Shown here one piece after another: positions 22,702 through 33,670 of a stretch of DNA of 47,794 bases (position 1 is its first letter; each line of letters opens with the position of its first letter). The DNA lies in the NCBI GenBank assembly GCA_046070745.1, contig JBJTMX010000044.1, forward strand, positions 1-47,794, read 5' to 3'. Made by a program: the position numbers and the translations under genes. The notes below the pieces were generated by a model that did no database searches, was not told where the DNA came from, and saw nothing but the letters and a program-made list of their open reading frames with translations. The stretch is from Candidatus Planktophila sp. (GTDB taxonomy: Bacteria > Actinomycetota > Actinomycetes > Nanopelagicales > Nanopelagicaceae).

Positions 22702-23258
22702 TTTCTCCTCCAATGTCGAACCACTATATATCCAATAAAAATCCAGATTAACCCGAATAGAAACCTGTTGAATTGGGTATCTAGCTGTGGAACGAGAAGC
22801 TCAGAAATCGTTGCATAGCGCTCATCCTCACCGGTGACTCTCGCCATTACCAATGCACTGAGCTCAATGAGCGAGATAGAAAGTGCAACTGTCCCCCACA
22901 CCCAAGCGCCCTTGGTATGAAGTCGGTCTAGTTTGCTTTTATGTTCGCCTACTCCCCACAGTTCAAGGAAAAGTATTACTCCAAGAATTATGAAGAGGAT
23001 TGATAGAAGAAGACTTTGGCGAGGAAGGAAACTTGCAAGCAAAATGAAAAAAGAGATTAGCGTCCATATTGCACGCTTATCGATTTTTAAGAGTGGGAAT
23101 GCGCTTTTTGTAAGATGAAACAAAGGCTGGAGTAATAAAACTATTGTGGCTCCACCAAAGATAAAGGCATCCACCAACTCTTTTCTAAAGAGTTGAAACA
23201 AGAAAGTAATGGCGAAAATTCCCGTCCATGGGCTGAGGCCAAGAATTTTCCCTTTCAC
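22698..23258 (-). CDS. Hypothetical membrane protein
   Basis: ~6 TM segments; TISELL motif; TACCAT-N6-GTG. Confidence 0.75.
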
Positions 23259-23321
23259 AGGTCAATGGTATGTGATTTCCTGCTAGGGAATAAAGTCATT
23301 CGTTTCTCAGTTTTAGTTTTC

Positions 23322-25460
23322 ATGAATGAGAACTTAAATCAAGATAACAAATCGGCACTTGAGCAATACGGAGTGGATTTAACCGCGCGGGCGCGAGAGG
23401 GAAAAATCGATCCTGTGATCGGGCGCGATAATGAGGTACGTCGAGTTATTCAAGTTCTATCGCGTCGCACCAAAAATAACCCTGTATTAATTGGAGAACC
23501 AGGAACAGGAAAGACTGCAATAGTAGAAGGTCTTGCACTGCGAATCGCTACTGGCGATGTCCCTCTTGGGTTGAAAGAGAAGCGAGTTATTTCCCTAGAT
23601 TTAGGCTCACTCATCGCTGGTGCAAAGTACCGTGGAGAATTTGAAGAGCGTCTTAAGGCTGTACTCGACGAGATCAAGGAAGCTGAAGGTGAAGTAATTA
23701 CCTTTATTGACGAGTTACATACCGTTGTCGGCGCAGGCGGAATGGGCGGGGCTATGGATGCGGGCAATATGCTCAAACCTCTTCTTGCACGAGGTGAGCT
23801 CCATATGATTGGCGCAACAACACTGGATGAGTATCGACAGTACATTGAGAAGGATGCAGCGCTAGAACGCCGATTCCAACAGGTCTTAGTTGGCGAACCG
23901 AGCGTTGAGGAAACTGTCGCAATTCTGCGCGGAATTCGTGAAAAATACGAAGCCCATCACAAGGTAACAATTTCCGATAGTGCCCTAGTGGCGGCTGCGA
24001 CTCTTTCACATAGATACATCACTCACCGGTTCTTACCGGATAAGGCAATAGATCTAGTTGATGAAGCAGCATCTCGACTCCGCATGGAAATCGATTCCTC
24101 TCCGGAAGAGATAGATCAACTACAGCGAGCCGTCGATCGCTTGACCATGGAGGAGTTCGGACTATCAAAGGAGAAGGACACTTCGTCGAAGGAACGTCTT
24201 CGGACTTTGCGAGATGAACTTGCCCTGAAGAAATCAGAACTTTCTATGCTGAAGAAAAAGTGGGAGAGCGAAAAGGGCTCACTTGACCATATCGGTCTGT
24301 TGACGGAAGAGATGGATCGCATCCGAAGCGAGGCAGAAATGGCGCAGCGCAATGGTGAATTAGAAAAAGCTGCACGCCTGATGTATGGCCGTATGCGAGA
24401 AATTGAGCATGAGCTTGCCGAAGCCCGTTTAAACGCTGTGAGCAAATCGTCTATGGTGAAAGAAGAGGTTACCTCTGATGAAATCGCCGAGGTCATCTCC
24501 GCATGGACAAAGATCCCTGTGGGGCGGTTGCTTCAAGGTGATTCTGAGCGACTTGTTCACCTAGAGAATGAGCTCTCTCAGCGCGTTGTTGGCCAAGAGC
24601 AGGCTATCCAATCTGTTGCCGATGCGATTCGTCGCTCTCGTGCTGGAATATCCGATCCTCATCGACCAACTGGAACCTTTTTATTCCTGGGTCCTACTGG
24701 TGTTGGAAAGACAGAGCTGGCAAAGACTCTTGCACAATTTCTATTTGATGATGAGCGAGCAATGGTACGAATTGATATGAGTGAGTACGGAGAGAAATTC
24801 TCGGTTTCTCGTCTTGTAGGGGCTCCTCCGGGCTATGTTGGTTATGAAGAAGGTGGCCAATTAACCGAAGCAGTTCGTCGCCGTCCGTATTCAGTAATCC
24901 TCCTCGATGAGATAGAGAAGGCGCATCCAGAAGTTTTCGACCTACTTCTACAAGTATTCGATGATGGTCGCCTCACTGACGGTCAAGGCCGTACTGTTGA
25001 CTTTCGGAATTCCATCATCATTATGACGTCAAATTTAGGTTCTCAATTCCTAGTTGAAGCATCGCGCAGCCGTAGCGAAAAAGAGGACGCTGTAATGAAG
25101 GTGGTTCATGGCTCCTTCAAGCCAGAATTTCTCAATCGCATTGATGATGTATTGATATTCGAAGCTTTGGAGCGCAAAGCGATTTCTAGAATTTTGGAAT
25201 TACTTATTCAAAATCTCCAAGAACGCCTTCAAGACCGTCATATTGAAATTAAGGTTGATGACCGAGCAAAGAGCTGGTTGATGGAGAAGGGTTACGATCC
25301 ACGATTTGGAGCAAGACCACTGCGTCGAACAATTCAGAAGGCAATTGGCGATCCAATTGCTAAAAAAATTCTCTCTGGCGAAGTATCTGATGGCGCTATT
25401 GTTGAAATTTCTGTATTAGCTCCGGATGCGGATGAACTACTAATTTCTGTTGCAGCTTAA
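23322..25460 (+). CDS. clpB: ClpB-type AAA+ disaggregase lacking the N-terminal domain
   Basis: [15 protein letters not shown], coiled-coil M-domain, [30 protein letters not shown]; starts ~25 aa before NBD1. Confidence 0.92.
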
Positions 25461-30920: not shown

Positions 30921-31295
30921 CTATTTTGACTGATAGTAGAAATAGTAACTTCCCTCAACGGGATGACCATCCTCAGAGACGATTCGATACCTTACTTGGT
31001 ACCTACCTTGAGGTATTCCTAACTTTATTTTGCATGATATTCGAGCACCTCCAACTATCGTGCCACCGATATCTACCCGTTTGAGCTTAGAATCTACAAC
31101 CTTAATCTCATTCGGATTCTTATCACCAAAAGTCATGAGATTGCCATCAAATTCAATCCACACAAGCTTTGGCAAACCCTTAACAATCTGGTTACTCAAG
31201 GGCATGCTGGCTGTCAGCTGGGCATGAGCAATCGCCGCTTGAGGCGAAAATGTAAATGCAACTATTGCCATAACTGTGAATACTTTAATTTTCAT
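30921..31295 (-). CDS. copC: CopC family copper-binding protein
   Basis: Signal peptide then AIA|HAQLTASMP (N-terminal His); YRIVSEDGHPVEG. Confidence 0.9.
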   Translation of the reverse strand: MKIKVFTVMAIVAFTFSPQAAIAHAQLTASMPLSNQIVKGLPKLVWIEFDGNLMTFGDKNPNEIKVVDSKLKRVDIGGTIVGGARISCKIKLGIPQGRYQVRYRIVSEDGHPVEGSYYFYYQSK

Positions 31296-31331: not shown

Positions 31332-31342
31332 CTGTTCCATTT

Positions 31343-31900
31343 CTACTTTGCTGTGGCCGCAACAGTTGTCACGGTTGGTGCAGGTCCATACTCAGTATCT
31401 TCTGTTGGAGCCATCTTTGATCCATCAGTAATGATCCACTGAAGGTAGAGCGGCTTCTTGCCAGGTGCGAAACAAGTCTGTGTTACTGGAAACGCAATGG
31501 TCTGAGGGGTTGCGCTCCAGGTCAGTTTCAAACCGAAATCGTAGAAAGTTCCATCGTCAATTGCGTGACCCAAGGTTTTGGCAGTCCAAGTGACTGTGTA
31601 ATTGAGTGGGGCATTCTTGGCATCTACTTCGGAACTTGCAACAACCGACGATTTGTATCCGTAGTGAAACTCTGGAGTTGGCTTTCCCGCGGCTGCAGGA
31701 ACTACTACTTTAAAGATACTGGTTGGGTACTTGACGTTGTTATATGTACAGCCATGGCCAAGTGAGAGCCAAAGTCGGCTCGACTGCCCTGCCACAAGCG
31801 TGTAGCCCTTCGATTGCGCTGAAACATGAGCCGATGCAGGCGATACGGATGCAACCAGCGTAATAAGGGCAGCAGAAATTATGAGTAATACTTTTTTCAT
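31343..31900 (-). CDS. ycnI: YcnI/DUF1775 family copper-binding exported protein
   Basis: ASA|HVS N-terminal His, GHGC, VTWTA, FPVTQTC, conserved W, PAPTVT. Confidence 0.85.
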   Translation of the reverse strand: MKKVLLIISAALITLVASVSPASAHVSAQSKGYTLVAGQSSRLWLSLGHGCTYNNVKYPTSIFKVVVPAAAGKPTPEFHYGYKSSVVASSEVDAKNAPLNYTVTWTAKTLGHAIDDGTFYDFGLKLTWSATPQTIAFPVTQTCFAPGKKPLYLQWIITDGSKMAPTEDTEYGPAPTVTTVAATAK

Positions 31901-31930
31901 TGGAAATCCTTTTTTTGAAGTAAAAGTGTA

Positions 31931-32044
31931 TTAGCGGGATTTCTTAGAGAAATACCACCAGGCAGCAATTGCGATAAGAGCTACTGCTGTTTCAAGAATG
32001 TGCGTTGAATGCACATGGAAGAAAGATTCGTGATTCATATTCAT
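31931..32044 (-). CDS. 37-aa His-rich single-TM microprotein (not in ORF track)
   Basis: MNMNHESFFHVHSTHILETAVALIAIAAWWYFSKKSR*; GGGAG RBS; ATGA overlap with the upstream stop. Confidence 0.72.
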   Translation of the reverse strand: MNMNHESFFHVHSTHILETAVALIAIAAWWYFSKKSR

Positions 32045-32538
32045 ACAATCTCCCTGGTAGGTGGACCTCTAAATAGTCGAGATGAATAAAAAAGATGAGA
32101 AATTGACAATCGCGTTTCAACTTGGTTAGCGCAGATATAAAAAACTTTAAGCGAAATGACTCTGAAAATCGACATGAAGAAAACATGAGCAAGTCCTGCG
32201 AGGAACTCCCAGAATCGATCAAAATGAACAACTGTTTTGTACGAAATTATTCCTGCTAATAAATGTGCCCCGCTCATCTGGACATCATTAGATTTGTCCG
32301 CTCCTCCGAGAATAAAGTGACCAGAGCTCTGGAGAATCAAAATCATGAGTGCTAGTTGAGGTCCTTCATGAGAATGATTTCTTGTGAGGAAGAGGCTCGC
32401 ACCGATTAATCCTGACAGTACAAGAAATCGATGAATTTCTATGACTGCACCACCTGAAAGTAGGTGAGCCAAGATTCCTGATAAAAAAAGGACGAGCGAC
32501 TTGGTGAAGTTATCACATTTCGCCGTTACAGGAAGCAT
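32041..32538 (-). CDS. His-bearing membrane protein with C-terminal RGPP motif
   Basis: AHLLSGG, QSSGH and MSGAH in TM segments; ends RLFRGPPTREIV; TATCAT-N6-ATG. Confidence 0.78.
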   Translation of the reverse strand: MLPVTAKCDNFTKSLVLFLSGILAHLLSGGAVIEIHRFLVLSGLIGASLFLTRNHSHEGPQLALMILILQSSGHFILGGADKSNDVQMSGAHLLAGIISYKTVVHFDRFWEFLAGLAHVFFMSIFRVISLKVFYICANQVETRLSISHLFYSSRLFRGPPTREIV

Positions 32539-32597: not shown

Positions 32598-33191
32598 ATG
32601 GCGACACTTGAATCCATGTTGGCATCGCCCGATCAATCCACGCGGCTGAAAGCAGCTCTCGGCGCTGGCACCTATCCACAACCCGAATACATCGAAATTC
32701 TTATCAACCAATGTTCGCACGAGCCTGACTTCTTTGTGCGAGACACACTTTCCTGGGCGCTCTTGATGCACGACCACAACTCTGTAGTAAGTCGCCTCAT
32801 TCCAGAGCTAGCTTCTGCGAACAAGCAAGCAAAGAGTCAAGCAATTCATACTCTCTCAAAAATCGGCGACAAGAGAAATTTCAATCTTATCTCCGATGCG
32901 ATGTTATTTGATCCGGATGATTTGATTGCCTCGACCGCCTGGCGAGCAGCCTCTGTACTAGTTCCGGAAGAAGACAAGCCGGCACTTGTCGCCAAGCTTG
33001 TTACTCAGCTGGGTCGTGGAGACTCAGATCTCCAATTCGCACTCACCCGCTTCCTCTGCGCTATTGGAGAATCTATAGTTGTGCCACTGAAGCAAGCAGC
33101 AAAAAGTAAAGAACCTGACATACAGCAGCAGGCCGAGTTCACCTTGATTCGATATCAAGAGATGAAGCGAGAGCAGAGAGAGAAGCGGTAA
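32598..33191 (+). CDS. HEAT-repeat protein
   Basis: RLKAALGAGT, EPDFFVRDTLSWAL, SQAIHTLSKIGD. Confidence 0.85.
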   Translation: MATLESMLASPDQSTRLKAALGAGTYPQPEYIEILINQCSHEPDFFVRDTLSWALLMHDHNSVVSRLIPELASANKQAKSQAIHTLSKIGDKRNFNLISDAMLFDPDDLIASTAWRAASVLVPEEDKPALVAKLVTQLGRGDSDLQFALTRFLCAIGESIVVPLKQAAKSKEPDIQQQAEFTLIRYQEMKREQREKR

Positions 33192-33196
33192 TTATC

Positions 33197-33670
33197 ATGG
33201 GCGCGGTGAAAAAAATTGCAGGCGGAAAGCTGATTGGCGTTAAGACAAGCACCTACACAATTTTCAATCAAGAAAAATATGATCCGAAAGTTATTCCTGC
33301 GGCATGGAGTTTATTCTTCGAGCAATATCGTCAATCCTCGCTACCTCACTCAGCAATTTTTTATAGCGCCGCGATTCCAAGCATGTCCTTTGATATTCCA
33401 ATGGATTATTACGCAGGAGCAATATTTGAAGAGAGTGTTGAAGTTCCTGTTGGATTTGAATCGGTATCTATCCCTGAGGGCAATTACTTCTGTGTCACAC
33501 ACAATGGACCAATTTCAAACCTTGCTGCAACCTTTGCTCAAGCCTATGGAGTTGAACTTCCAGAATCTCAGGCAGAGATGAGAAATGCCCCTCACTTGGA
33601 AATCTATAACTCAGATAAGGATCCGATGGCTGAGGAATATTCGATGGAGCTTGGGATTCCGGTCCAATAA
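33197..33670 (+). CDS. GyrI-like small-molecule-binding protein
   Basis: IPEGNYFCVTHNGP, HLEIY, ELGIPV. Confidence 0.82.
   Translation: MGAVKKIAGGKLIGVKTSTYTIFNQEKYDPKVIPAAWSLFFEQYRQSSLPHSAIFYSAAIPSMSFDIPMDYYAGAIFEESVEVPVGFESVSIPEGNYFCVTHNGPISNLAATFAQAYGVELPESQAEMRNAPHLEIYNSDKDPMAEEYSMELGIPVQ

What the first reader, a model, noticed from the sequence alone, without database searches (positions are those of the whole stretch)
31931..32044. Unannotated 37-aa His-rich membrane microprotein inside the copper locus
Seen: MNMNHESFFHVHSTH (2 Met, 4 His), a hydrophobic helix, WWYF and a basic KKSR tail, with a good SD and ATGA coupling. Inference: by the positive-inside rule the His/Met N-terminus faces outside, making it a minimal Cu-capturing peptide reminiscent of Ctr ectodomains, or a relay for translational coupling.
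Basis: partly seen in the sequence, partly recalled or inferred. Interest (0 to 1): 0.7.

Follow-up and report, generated by a model that had tools for sequence, protein, structure and literature searches.

The report
CopC's His anchor as free microprotein
This 37-residue gene encodes the histidine-rich membrane tail that related lake bacteria carry on their copper-binding protein CopC, here made as a separate peptide right behind a predicted copper-sensing ribosome-stalling gene, where it likely holds copper at the cell surface.

Summary
The ORF is a conserved gene: 33 distinct orthologous coding sequences in five genera of Ca. Nanopelagicaceae, dN/dS 0.21. It is not a Ctr relative. It is homologous to the His-rich C-terminal membrane anchor on CopC in sister operons. 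The two forms never met: of 45 readable ycnI loci, 22 have free peptide plus tail-less CopC, 20 have tailed CopC, 3 neither, 0 both. His12, His15 and Trp29 lie on one conserved helical face in both forms; the Met residues are not conserved. The free form is always the first ORF after a four-helix RGPP/RAPP leader of a published arrest-peptide class, coupled to its stop. It has two additions: a His3 (ATCUN-type) N-terminus in 25 of 33, and an mRNA hairpin over its last codons (30 of 32 free, 1 of 37 tails). Best reading: a membrane-surface copper-holding peptide made when the leader's stall is released. Copper binding, translation and partner are untested. A stall-driven switch on the ycnI start was not supported. 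The scan had reported this leader type on other DNA (e1-5225379); my look-ups returned no note on this peptide.

The parts
31931..32044 (-). 37-aa His-rich single-helix membrane microprotein, the free form of the CopC C-terminal His anchor
   Evidence: Translation; 33 orthologous CDS; omega 0.21; aligns with CopC tails; AF2 helix 6-36, mean pLDDT 84.7
32036..32038 (-). Second in-frame ATG (Met3); a start here would put His at position 3, as in most orthologues
   Evidence: Sequence; His3 in 25 of 33 orthologues; which ATG is used is untested
32050..32055 (-). SD-like AGGGAG of the peptide ORF, inside the last codons of the leader, 3 nt after the RGPP codons
   Evidence: Sequence
32041..32538 (-). 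165-aa four-TM-helix leader ending in RGPP (arrest-peptide type); invariant H25, Q70, H74, M88, H92, P159, P160
   Evidence: Alignment of 50 homologues; AF2 model pLDDT 86.5; class described in PMC12992588
32059..32070 (-). RGPP codons (predicted stall site); first Pro codon 20 nt before the peptide ATG
31932..31960 (-). mRNA hairpin from the Trp-Trp codons to the stop codon, typical of the free form
   Evidence: -11.1 kcal/mol, z -3.1 against synonymous recodings; covariation count
31901..31930 (-). A/T-rich 30-nt spacer holding the ycnI SD (AAAGGA, 31912-31907)
   Evidence: Sequence; gap 23-33 nt and mean 77% A+T in 32 orthologous loci
31343..31900 (-). ycnI-like gene (DUF1775); signal peptide and mature N-terminal His read by eye; no C-terminal TM helix
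   Evidence: PF07987 E 1.1e-6; sequence
30921..31295 (-). copC lacking any C-terminal anchor (124 aa; a longer start at 31340 is possible)
   Evidence: PF04234 E 1.9e-15; ends at the CopC domain

Best explanation
The ORF is a conserved gene for the His-rich membrane anchor that sister operons carry on CopC, here encoded on its own; it is likely translated by ribosomes re-initiating as they finish the upstream RGPP leader, is predicted to sit in the membrane as one helix with its histidines outside, and likely holds copper there for the secreted, anchor-less YcnI and CopC. SHOWN by sequence analysis: gene status, homology to the CopC tail, mutual exclusion with tailed CopC, position coupled to the leader stop, a conserved helical face (8/12/15/19/22/26/29), and a 3' hairpin favoured by codon choice. 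INFERRED: (1) N-out topology; (2) Cu binding by His12/His15 plus His3 or His5; (3) packing of the conserved face against a partner helix, itself or another membrane protein, to complete a site; (4) a ribosome stalled on RGPP blocks the peptide start, so the peptide is made on release, which by the CruR precedent would be when copper is available; (5) origin by fission rather than fusion.
For: Homology: the peptide alone finds C-termini of CopC ORFs in five genomes (E 8e-5 to 0.01); 71 free and fused modules align with H12, H15, W29 invariant. Exclusion: 22/20/3/0 in 45 readable of 62 ycnI-selected metagenome loci; 7 free, 5 tailed, 5 neither, 0 both in 17 genome loci; of 40 matching genomes among 301, 12 free, 27 tailed, 1 spurious, none both. 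Selection: omega 0.21, close to the leader's 0.185. Conservation peaks at 103-105 degrees per residue, permutation p 0.004; AF2 gives one helix, residues 6-36. The two other CopCs of this genome have plain TM anchors without His, so the His motif is not a general anchor feature. His3 is kept in both length classes (9 of 10 and 16 of 17). The genome encodes COX1 and a CopD-CtaG fusion, so it has a copper demand. B. subtilis YcnI and the CopC domain exchange Cu(II) at the outer membrane face (PMC12362106, abstract and opening text seen).
Against: No binding, expression or partner data. The module is dispensable: 3 of 45 and 5 of 17 ycnI loci have neither form. 'Invariant His' holds only for the 71 best-scoring rows: among weaker hits two tails (L173, L181) and one free ORF (L166) lack both His, and one free ORF (L163) looks degenerate. 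An ATCUN site needs a deformylated N-terminus (recalled), and this window has His3 only from its second ATG. The sign of regulation is borrowed: CruR releases on Cu (PMC9426467, passages seen), CutF is delayed by Cu (PMC9973294, abstract seen). Direction of the split is unproven: free loci fall in two groups, one clade is rejected (p-AU 0.005, 28 of 44 rows), and the tree has no outgroup. Loci were not de-replicated and kin are not independent.
Confidence: 0.55

Rival explanations
1. The ORF works mainly as an mRNA control element between the arrest leader and ycnI-copC. Translating it melts the 3' hairpin (a pause, terminator or stability element), and the peptide itself matters little.
For: 3'-end folding beats synonymous recodings in 30 of 32 free ORFs (mean z -2.64) against 1 of 37 fused tails (0.04) and 18 of 93 ycnI control windows. 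Five of 12 pairs change on both sides, 0 of 500 shuffles reach the covariation score (relatedness not controlled). W30 is 33 of 33 in free, 7 of 38 in tails. Synonymous divergence is low (pS 0.46 against 0.73-0.78 in neighbours). In tailed loci the same position holds predicted hairpins. The His-less free ORF L166 keeps WW. In this window the WW codons pair with the RGPP/SD region (probability 0.91) unless a stall is modelled.
Against: His12, His15 and the helical face are kept in both forms, where the RNA context differs. Out of sample the hairpin held in only 3 of 5 further free ORFs (one a near-copy) against 2 of 14 tails. The alternative pairing appears in 9 of 32 loci only. The stall effect on the next start seen in a short fold (12 lower, 1 higher) vanished in a longer one (5 and 5; control block 3 and 8). 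No canonical U-tract follows (5 or more T in 8 nt: 9 of 32) and the terminator scan did not flag it.
Confidence: 0.2
2. The helix binds the four-helix RGPP leader itself and delivers copper or adds ligands to its His/Met site, giving feedback on the stall. The CopC fusion would be one way of bringing copper to that site.
For: All 32 free peptides with upstream DNA held follow a leader. Most tailed CopCs with enough flank lie beside one, including head-to-head layouts without ycnI. Both have conserved intramembrane faces, and coupling would put them together in the membrane.
Against: Leaders also occur without the module. Some tailed CopC loci show no leader in the flank held (e.g. L114, L116, L170, L171, L174, L177). 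Co-location is not binding.
Confidence: 0.13
3. The peptide self-assembles into a trimer or tetramer whose stacked His layers pass copper across the membrane: a minimal Ctr-like or viroporin-like importer.
For: Conserved positions follow a 4-3 heptad (8, 12, 15, 19, 22, 26, 29) with His at two core positions and small residues at 22 and 27. This operon has no CopD.
Against: The TM part has no conserved metal ligands below His15 and no Met-x3-Met. The genome has a CopD-CtaG fusion elsewhere. The module is dispensable.
Confidence: 0.08
4. It is a decaying leftover of a deleted copC gene with no present function.
For: It is a fragment of a longer gene type. One locus (L163) shows decay of both leader and peptide.
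Against: omega 0.21 over 33 sequences in five genera, intact frames with varied start/stop junctions, and features specific to the free form.
Confidence: 0.03

Closest known systems
Tail-anchored actinobacterial CopC (PF04234 plus C-terminal TM helix)
   Same: The peptide is homologous to the C-terminal His+TM+basic segment of the CopC proteins in sister operons. C-terminal hydrophobic tails on CopC are noted in PMC10924467 (passages seen).
   Different: Here the segment is a separate gene upstream of ycnI and CopC is anchor-less. The His motif is missing from the genome's other CopC anchors and was not found outside the family in 400 phylum genomes (one weak hit, E 9e-4). My paper searches showed no description of it.
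RAPP/RGPP arrest-peptide leaders upstream of ycnI (S. lividans SLIV_18480 type; PMC12992588), and CruR and CutF
   Same: The upstream gene is under 300 aa, has four predicted TM helices, three invariant His plus one Met and a C-terminal RGPP, and heads a ycnI-copC operon.
   Different: The first downstream ORF is a coupled microprotein starting mostly 19-37 nt from the predicted P-site codon, not a gene behind a long intergenic region (162 bp for cruR). Such a short ORF would be passed over by analyses that classify the next annotated gene (inference from the methods passage).
Human Ctr1 ectodomain (ATCUN, bis-His, Met motifs)
   Same: Extracellular His-rich N-terminus before a TM helix; His3 in 25 of 33 orthologues. 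Ctr1 motifs from the abstract starts of PMC9117721 and PMC8953729 (search listing).
   Different: One helix, no conserved Met motif, no Pfam match, independent origin from CopC. An analogy, not homology.
B. subtilis YcnI/YcnJ (CutI/CutJ) surface copper exchange
   Same: YcnI and CopC domains encoded together, proposed to hold and exchange Cu(II) at the outer membrane face (PMC12362106 abstract; PMC8424229 passages).
   Different: There both proteins are membrane-tethered and controlled by the YcnK repressor. Here both lack anchors and control appears to run through an arrest leader.

Membership tests
His-rich C-terminal anchor of leader-associated CopC (undescribed module) | F-x3-H-x2-H followed by a TM helix, Trp and a basic tail, alignable without gaps | tested here: met
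   F8, H12, H15, I26, W29 shared by free and fused forms
His-rich C-terminal anchor of leader-associated CopC (undescribed module) | Covalently joined to a CopC domain | tested here: not met
   Separate ORF with own start and stop; CopC ends at its domain
Ctr/SLC31 copper transporters | Three TM helices per chain (recalled) | tested here: not met
   One helix, residues 6-36
Ctr/SLC31 copper transporters | Met-x3-Met in a TM helix (recalled); family profile match | tested here: not met
   No Met in the TM segment; no Pfam match at E 0.05
Ctr/SLC31 copper transporters | N-terminal ectodomain with ATCUN, bis-His and Met motifs | tested here: inconclusive
   His3 in 25 of 33 orthologues, in this window only from the second ATG; Met motif absent; free amine unknown
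Ctr/SLC31 copper transporters | Homotrimer that conducts Cu(I) (recalled) | not testable with these tools
   Needs experiment; no complex model was obtained
RAPP/RGPP arrest leaders upstream of ycnI (upstream gene) | Under 300 aa, TM segments, RGPP/RAPP near the C-terminus, upstream of a YcnI-family gene | tested here: met
   165 aa, four helices in residues 10-104, RGPP at 157-160, ycnI two ORFs down
RAPP/RGPP arrest leaders upstream of ycnI (upstream gene) | Three conserved His and one Met, as predicted for SLIV_18480 | tested here: met
   H25, H74, H92, M88 invariant in 50 rows; described for SLIV_18480 in PMC12992588
RAPP/RGPP arrest leaders upstream of ycnI (upstream gene) | Direct sequence homology to SLIV_18480 | not tested
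   That sequence was not fetched; the profile search returned 36 proteins, none with an informative name
RAPP/RGPP arrest leaders upstream of ycnI (upstream gene) | Arg-dependent ribosome stalling | not testable with these tools
   Needs in vitro translation or toeprinting
Intrinsic terminator (3' hairpin) | GC-rich stem followed at once by a U-tract | tested here: not met
   Not flagged; 5 or more T in the next 8 nt in 9 of 32 loci

The most novel reading that the evidence does not exclude
A CopC anchor became a free, dual-coded microprotein, possibly twice. It is the direct output of a copper-sensing arrest leader, made only when the stall is released. It self-assembles through its heptad face into a His-layered copper store or pore with a new ATCUN N-terminus, while its own last codons fold into a hairpin that gates ycnI-copC. 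This would be a 35-40-residue convergent mimic of the Ctr ectodomain in ultra-small freshwater bacteria.
Probability: 0.15. Interest if true: 0.85.

Novelty: new variant of a known kind. Interest (0 to 1): 0.62.

Why it matters
It gives a traceable route by which a microprotein gene arises: a membrane tail appears as a separate ORF, keeps its metal-ligand face and shows N-terminal and RNA-level features that the fused form lacks. It points to an undescribed His motif on CopC anchors and shows that the first gene behind a copper arrest leader can be a short ORF that gene callers often skip, which changes how these leaders' outputs should be read. The peptide is short enough to synthesise, so copper binding, oligomer state and stall-dependent initiation are cheap to test. 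It bears on how streamlined freshwater Actinomycetota keep copper near the membrane when YcnI and CopC have no anchors.

Tried and rejected
Family scans of the peptide found nothing in Pfam or NCBIfam. The all-protein HMMER search with the single peptide gave 2 hits, both free peptides. A tail-region search gave 4 proteins, all CopC. The Atlas search, run on homologue P0006, gave only unnamed 34-47-aa clusters at scores of 0.81 or less, within chance. The leader model had no PDB fold match at E 0.001. No RNA holder was listed for the stretch, which is no evidence either way. Complex prediction (leader plus peptide) was not available; no model was obtained. A general stall-driven switch on the next gene's start was considered and dropped: 12 lower and 1 higher of 32 in a short fold, but 5 and 5 in a longer one, control block 3 and 8; it holds in this window alone (6.7 to 5.1 kcal/mol, control 7.0). 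The intrinsic-terminator reading is weak. Pairing of Pro-Pro codons with Trp-Trp codons appears in 9 of 32 loci only. A single origin of the free form was rejected under one model; the leader-only tree did not finish. Met as a conserved ligand was rejected. Four short-frame or weak profile hits were spurious (L165, L167, L168, L180). One tail (L102) was dropped from the hairpin count because the anchor pattern was not found. A CopC family paper sought by a recalled id was not held; the paper library lacks most subscription journals and no supplements were read, so a mention there cannot be excluded.

Full report
OBSERVATION. Window 32044-31931 (-) encodes MNMNHESFFHVHSTHILETAVALIAIAAWWYFSKKSR. 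An SD-like AGGGAG lies 5 nt upstream and the ATG overlaps the upstream stop as ATGA. The operon reads: 165-aa membrane ORF, peptide, DUF1775/YcnI (E 1.1e-6), CopC (E 1.9e-15). The peptide matches no Pfam or NCBIfam family. Record titles of related loci name Ca. Nanopelagicaceae; the genome is 1.25 Mb and 85% complete.

IT IS A GENE. The peptide finds syntenic ORFs at 73% and 69% identity in 2 of 150 relatives. A metagenome scan with a YcnI alignment (62 loci) and profile searches of 401 and 301 family genomes gave 33 distinct free coding sequences among the 118 loci then held, in five genus codes (g1, g60, g61, g64, g73). On these 33 (34 codons) omega is 0.212 and omega = 1 is rejected (lnL -1724.2 against -1795.1). 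On 26 shared loci omega is 0.20 for the peptide, 0.185 leader, 0.115 CopC, 0.077 YcnI. Translation itself was not observed.

WHAT IT IS. The weaker hits lie at the C-termini of CopC proteins. Free peptides (33) and fused tails (38) align over the whole module with H12, H15 and W29 invariant and F8 and I26 at 90% or more. The forms exclude each other. Among the 62 ycnI-selected loci, 45 are fully readable: 22 free peptide with tail-less CopC, 20 tailed CopC, 3 neither, 0 both; 17 were cut by contig ends and rows were not de-replicated. Among 17 genome loci: 7 free (one degenerate), 5 tailed, 5 neither, 0 both. Among 40 matching genomes of 301: 12 free, 27 tailed, 1 spurious. These sets overlap. 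The genome's two other CopCs have plain TM anchors without His. In 400 phylum genomes the profile found one weak hit outside the family (E 9e-4). Against my reading: weaker hits include two tails and one free ORF without the two His, and one decayed locus, so invariance holds for the best-scoring rows only, and operons without the module exist.

HISTORY. Fission is the more likely direction, because actinobacterial CopCs commonly carry C-terminal anchors (PMC10924467, passages seen) and tailed CopC occurs in several gene layouts while the free form has one position. It is not shown. Free loci form two groups on YcnI and concatenated trees, and one clade is rejected (p-AU 0.005; 28 of 44 rows, LG+G4, no outgroup). 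Two fissions, one fission with a re-fusion, or recombination all fit.

PROTEIN ANATOMY. AlphaFold2 gives one helix, residues 6-36, mean pLDDT 84.7. The hydrophobic core is I16-F32 with a basic C-end. Since the homologous tail follows a secreted domain, the His end is inferred to face out. Conservation is periodic at 103-105 degrees (permutation p 0.004), on positions 8, 12, 15, 19, 22, 26, 29: one face, which suggests a partner helix. His stands at position 3 in 25 of 33 free peptides, in both length classes (9 of 10, 16 of 17); this window has it only from its second ATG. That is the ATCUN pattern of the Ctr1 N-terminus (abstract starts of PMC9117721 and PMC8953729); it needs a free amine (recalled). 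Internal Met is not conserved.

CONTEXT. The upstream gene ends in RGPP, has four predicted TM helices and invariant H25, Q70, H74, M88, H92, P159, P160. This fits the RAPP/RGPP transmembrane uORFs upstream of ycnI in PMC12992588 (passages seen), where SLIV_18480 is among the S. lividans proteins reported to arrest and has a predicted 3-His/1-Met site. In all 32 free loci with the leader held, the peptide start lies -16 to +3 nt from the leader stop; it is 19-37 nt from the first Pro codon in 30 of them and 11 and 13 nt in two. That paper places the two Pro codons in the P and A sites. With usual footprints (recalled), a stalled ribosome would block the peptide start, at least at the shorter distances, so the peptide is inferred to be made on release. 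For CruR release follows copper sensing (PMC9426467, passages seen); for CutF copper prolongs the delay (PMC9973294, abstract seen). The sign here is therefore open.

RNA LAYER. Synonymous divergence in the peptide is low (pS 0.46 against 0.73-0.78). From the Trp-Trp codons to the stop, free ORFs fold better than synonymous recodings: z below -1 in 30 of 32 (mean -2.64), against 1 of 37 tails and 18 of 93 control windows. Five of 12 pairs change on both sides (0 of 500 shuffles for the covariation score; relatedness not controlled). W30 is fixed only in the free form (33 of 33 against 7 of 38). Out of sample the signal was weaker: 3 of 5 free, 2 of 14 tails. The window's junction folds at z -3.09 with the Trp codons paired to the RGPP/SD region, but this alternative appears in 9 of 32 loci, and a modelled stall has no consistent effect on the next start. 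The next gene begins 23-33 nt after the stop behind an A/T-rich spacer with its own SD, and there is no regular U-tract. The hairpin is probably real; its job (pause, stability, insulation, non-canonical termination) is unexplained.

MECHANISM. Most likely (0.55): a membrane-surface copper-holding peptide, made by re-initiation after leader release and serving the anchor-less YcnI and CopC; in B. subtilis these two domains exchange Cu(II) outside the membrane (PMC12362106, abstract and opening text seen). Rivals: mainly an RNA control element (0.2), a partner of the leader (0.13), an oligomeric pore (0.08), a relic (0.03). No complex model, binding or expression data were obtained.

NOVELTY. 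The leader class, YcnI and CopC are known. Searches for RGPP/arrest/copper/CopC, CopC/histidine-rich/transmembrane/Actinobacteria/YcnI, Nanopelagicales/copper/CopC/small protein, small membrane protein/copper/histidine/uORF/translational coupling and CopC/C-terminal transmembrane/membrane anchor/Streptomyces/histidine showed no description of the His anchor or its free form in the listings; subscription papers and supplements were not seen. Earlier scan notes: none by sequence or in relatives; one on the leader type in another genome. Verdict: real, a new variant of a known kind, interest 0.62.

Noticed in passing
L004, L079, L082-L084, L098, L100 (leader-ycnI junctions): Leaders ending in TSPP or PAPP instead of R[AG]PP. 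A hairpin covers the ycnI start and a modelled stall lowers its opening energy by about 6-8 kcal/mol: candidate Arg-less arrest motifs with a SecM-like switch.
   Followed up: partly
L049-L078 tailed loci, leader-ycnI gap of about 70 nt: Predicted two-layer hairpins (leader 3' end pairing plus an SD-covering stem) occupy the place where free loci have the peptide ORF.
   Followed up: partly
L008:1474-2511, L011:569-1602, L012:572-1605: Tailed copC and the leader-pcuAC-like pair are head to head with only 17-18 nt between the start codons, which suggests leaderless transcripts.
   Followed up: no
L107:1638-2477 (similar-sized gaps in L103, L113): A 279-aa lipoprotein-like ORF with a CxxxC motif (Sco-like by recall, not scanned) sits between the free peptide and ycnI; a similar N-terminus follows copC in L055, L056, L060.
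   Followed up: no
L104:1501-3099, L105: Free peptide followed by a divergent YcnI-like gene and a CopC fused to a long membrane domain (CopD-like by eye).
   Followed up: partly
L166:1382-1540; L163/L159; L047; L086: A free ORF with both core His replaced by Asp but WW kept (L166); a locus with frameshifted leader and degenerate peptide (L163/L159); a leader remnant without peptide (L047); a frameshifted ycnI (L086).
   Followed up: partly
G000:C110:425-2778 and G000:C82:17777-18280: A 612-aa CopD-CtaG fusion next to a CopC with a plain TM anchor, and a third CopC with a plain anchor; no PCuAC match in this 85% complete genome.
   Followed up: partly
window 32598-33670 (+): HEAT-repeat protein and GyrI-like protein transcribed away from the leader, 60 nt from its start; a similar HEAT gene lies downstream of copC in L007.
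   Followed up: no
window 23193-25460 (+): ClpB-like ORF (by eye, not scanned) of about 755 aa that seems to begin at the first ATPase domain, without the usual N-terminal domain.
   Followed up: no
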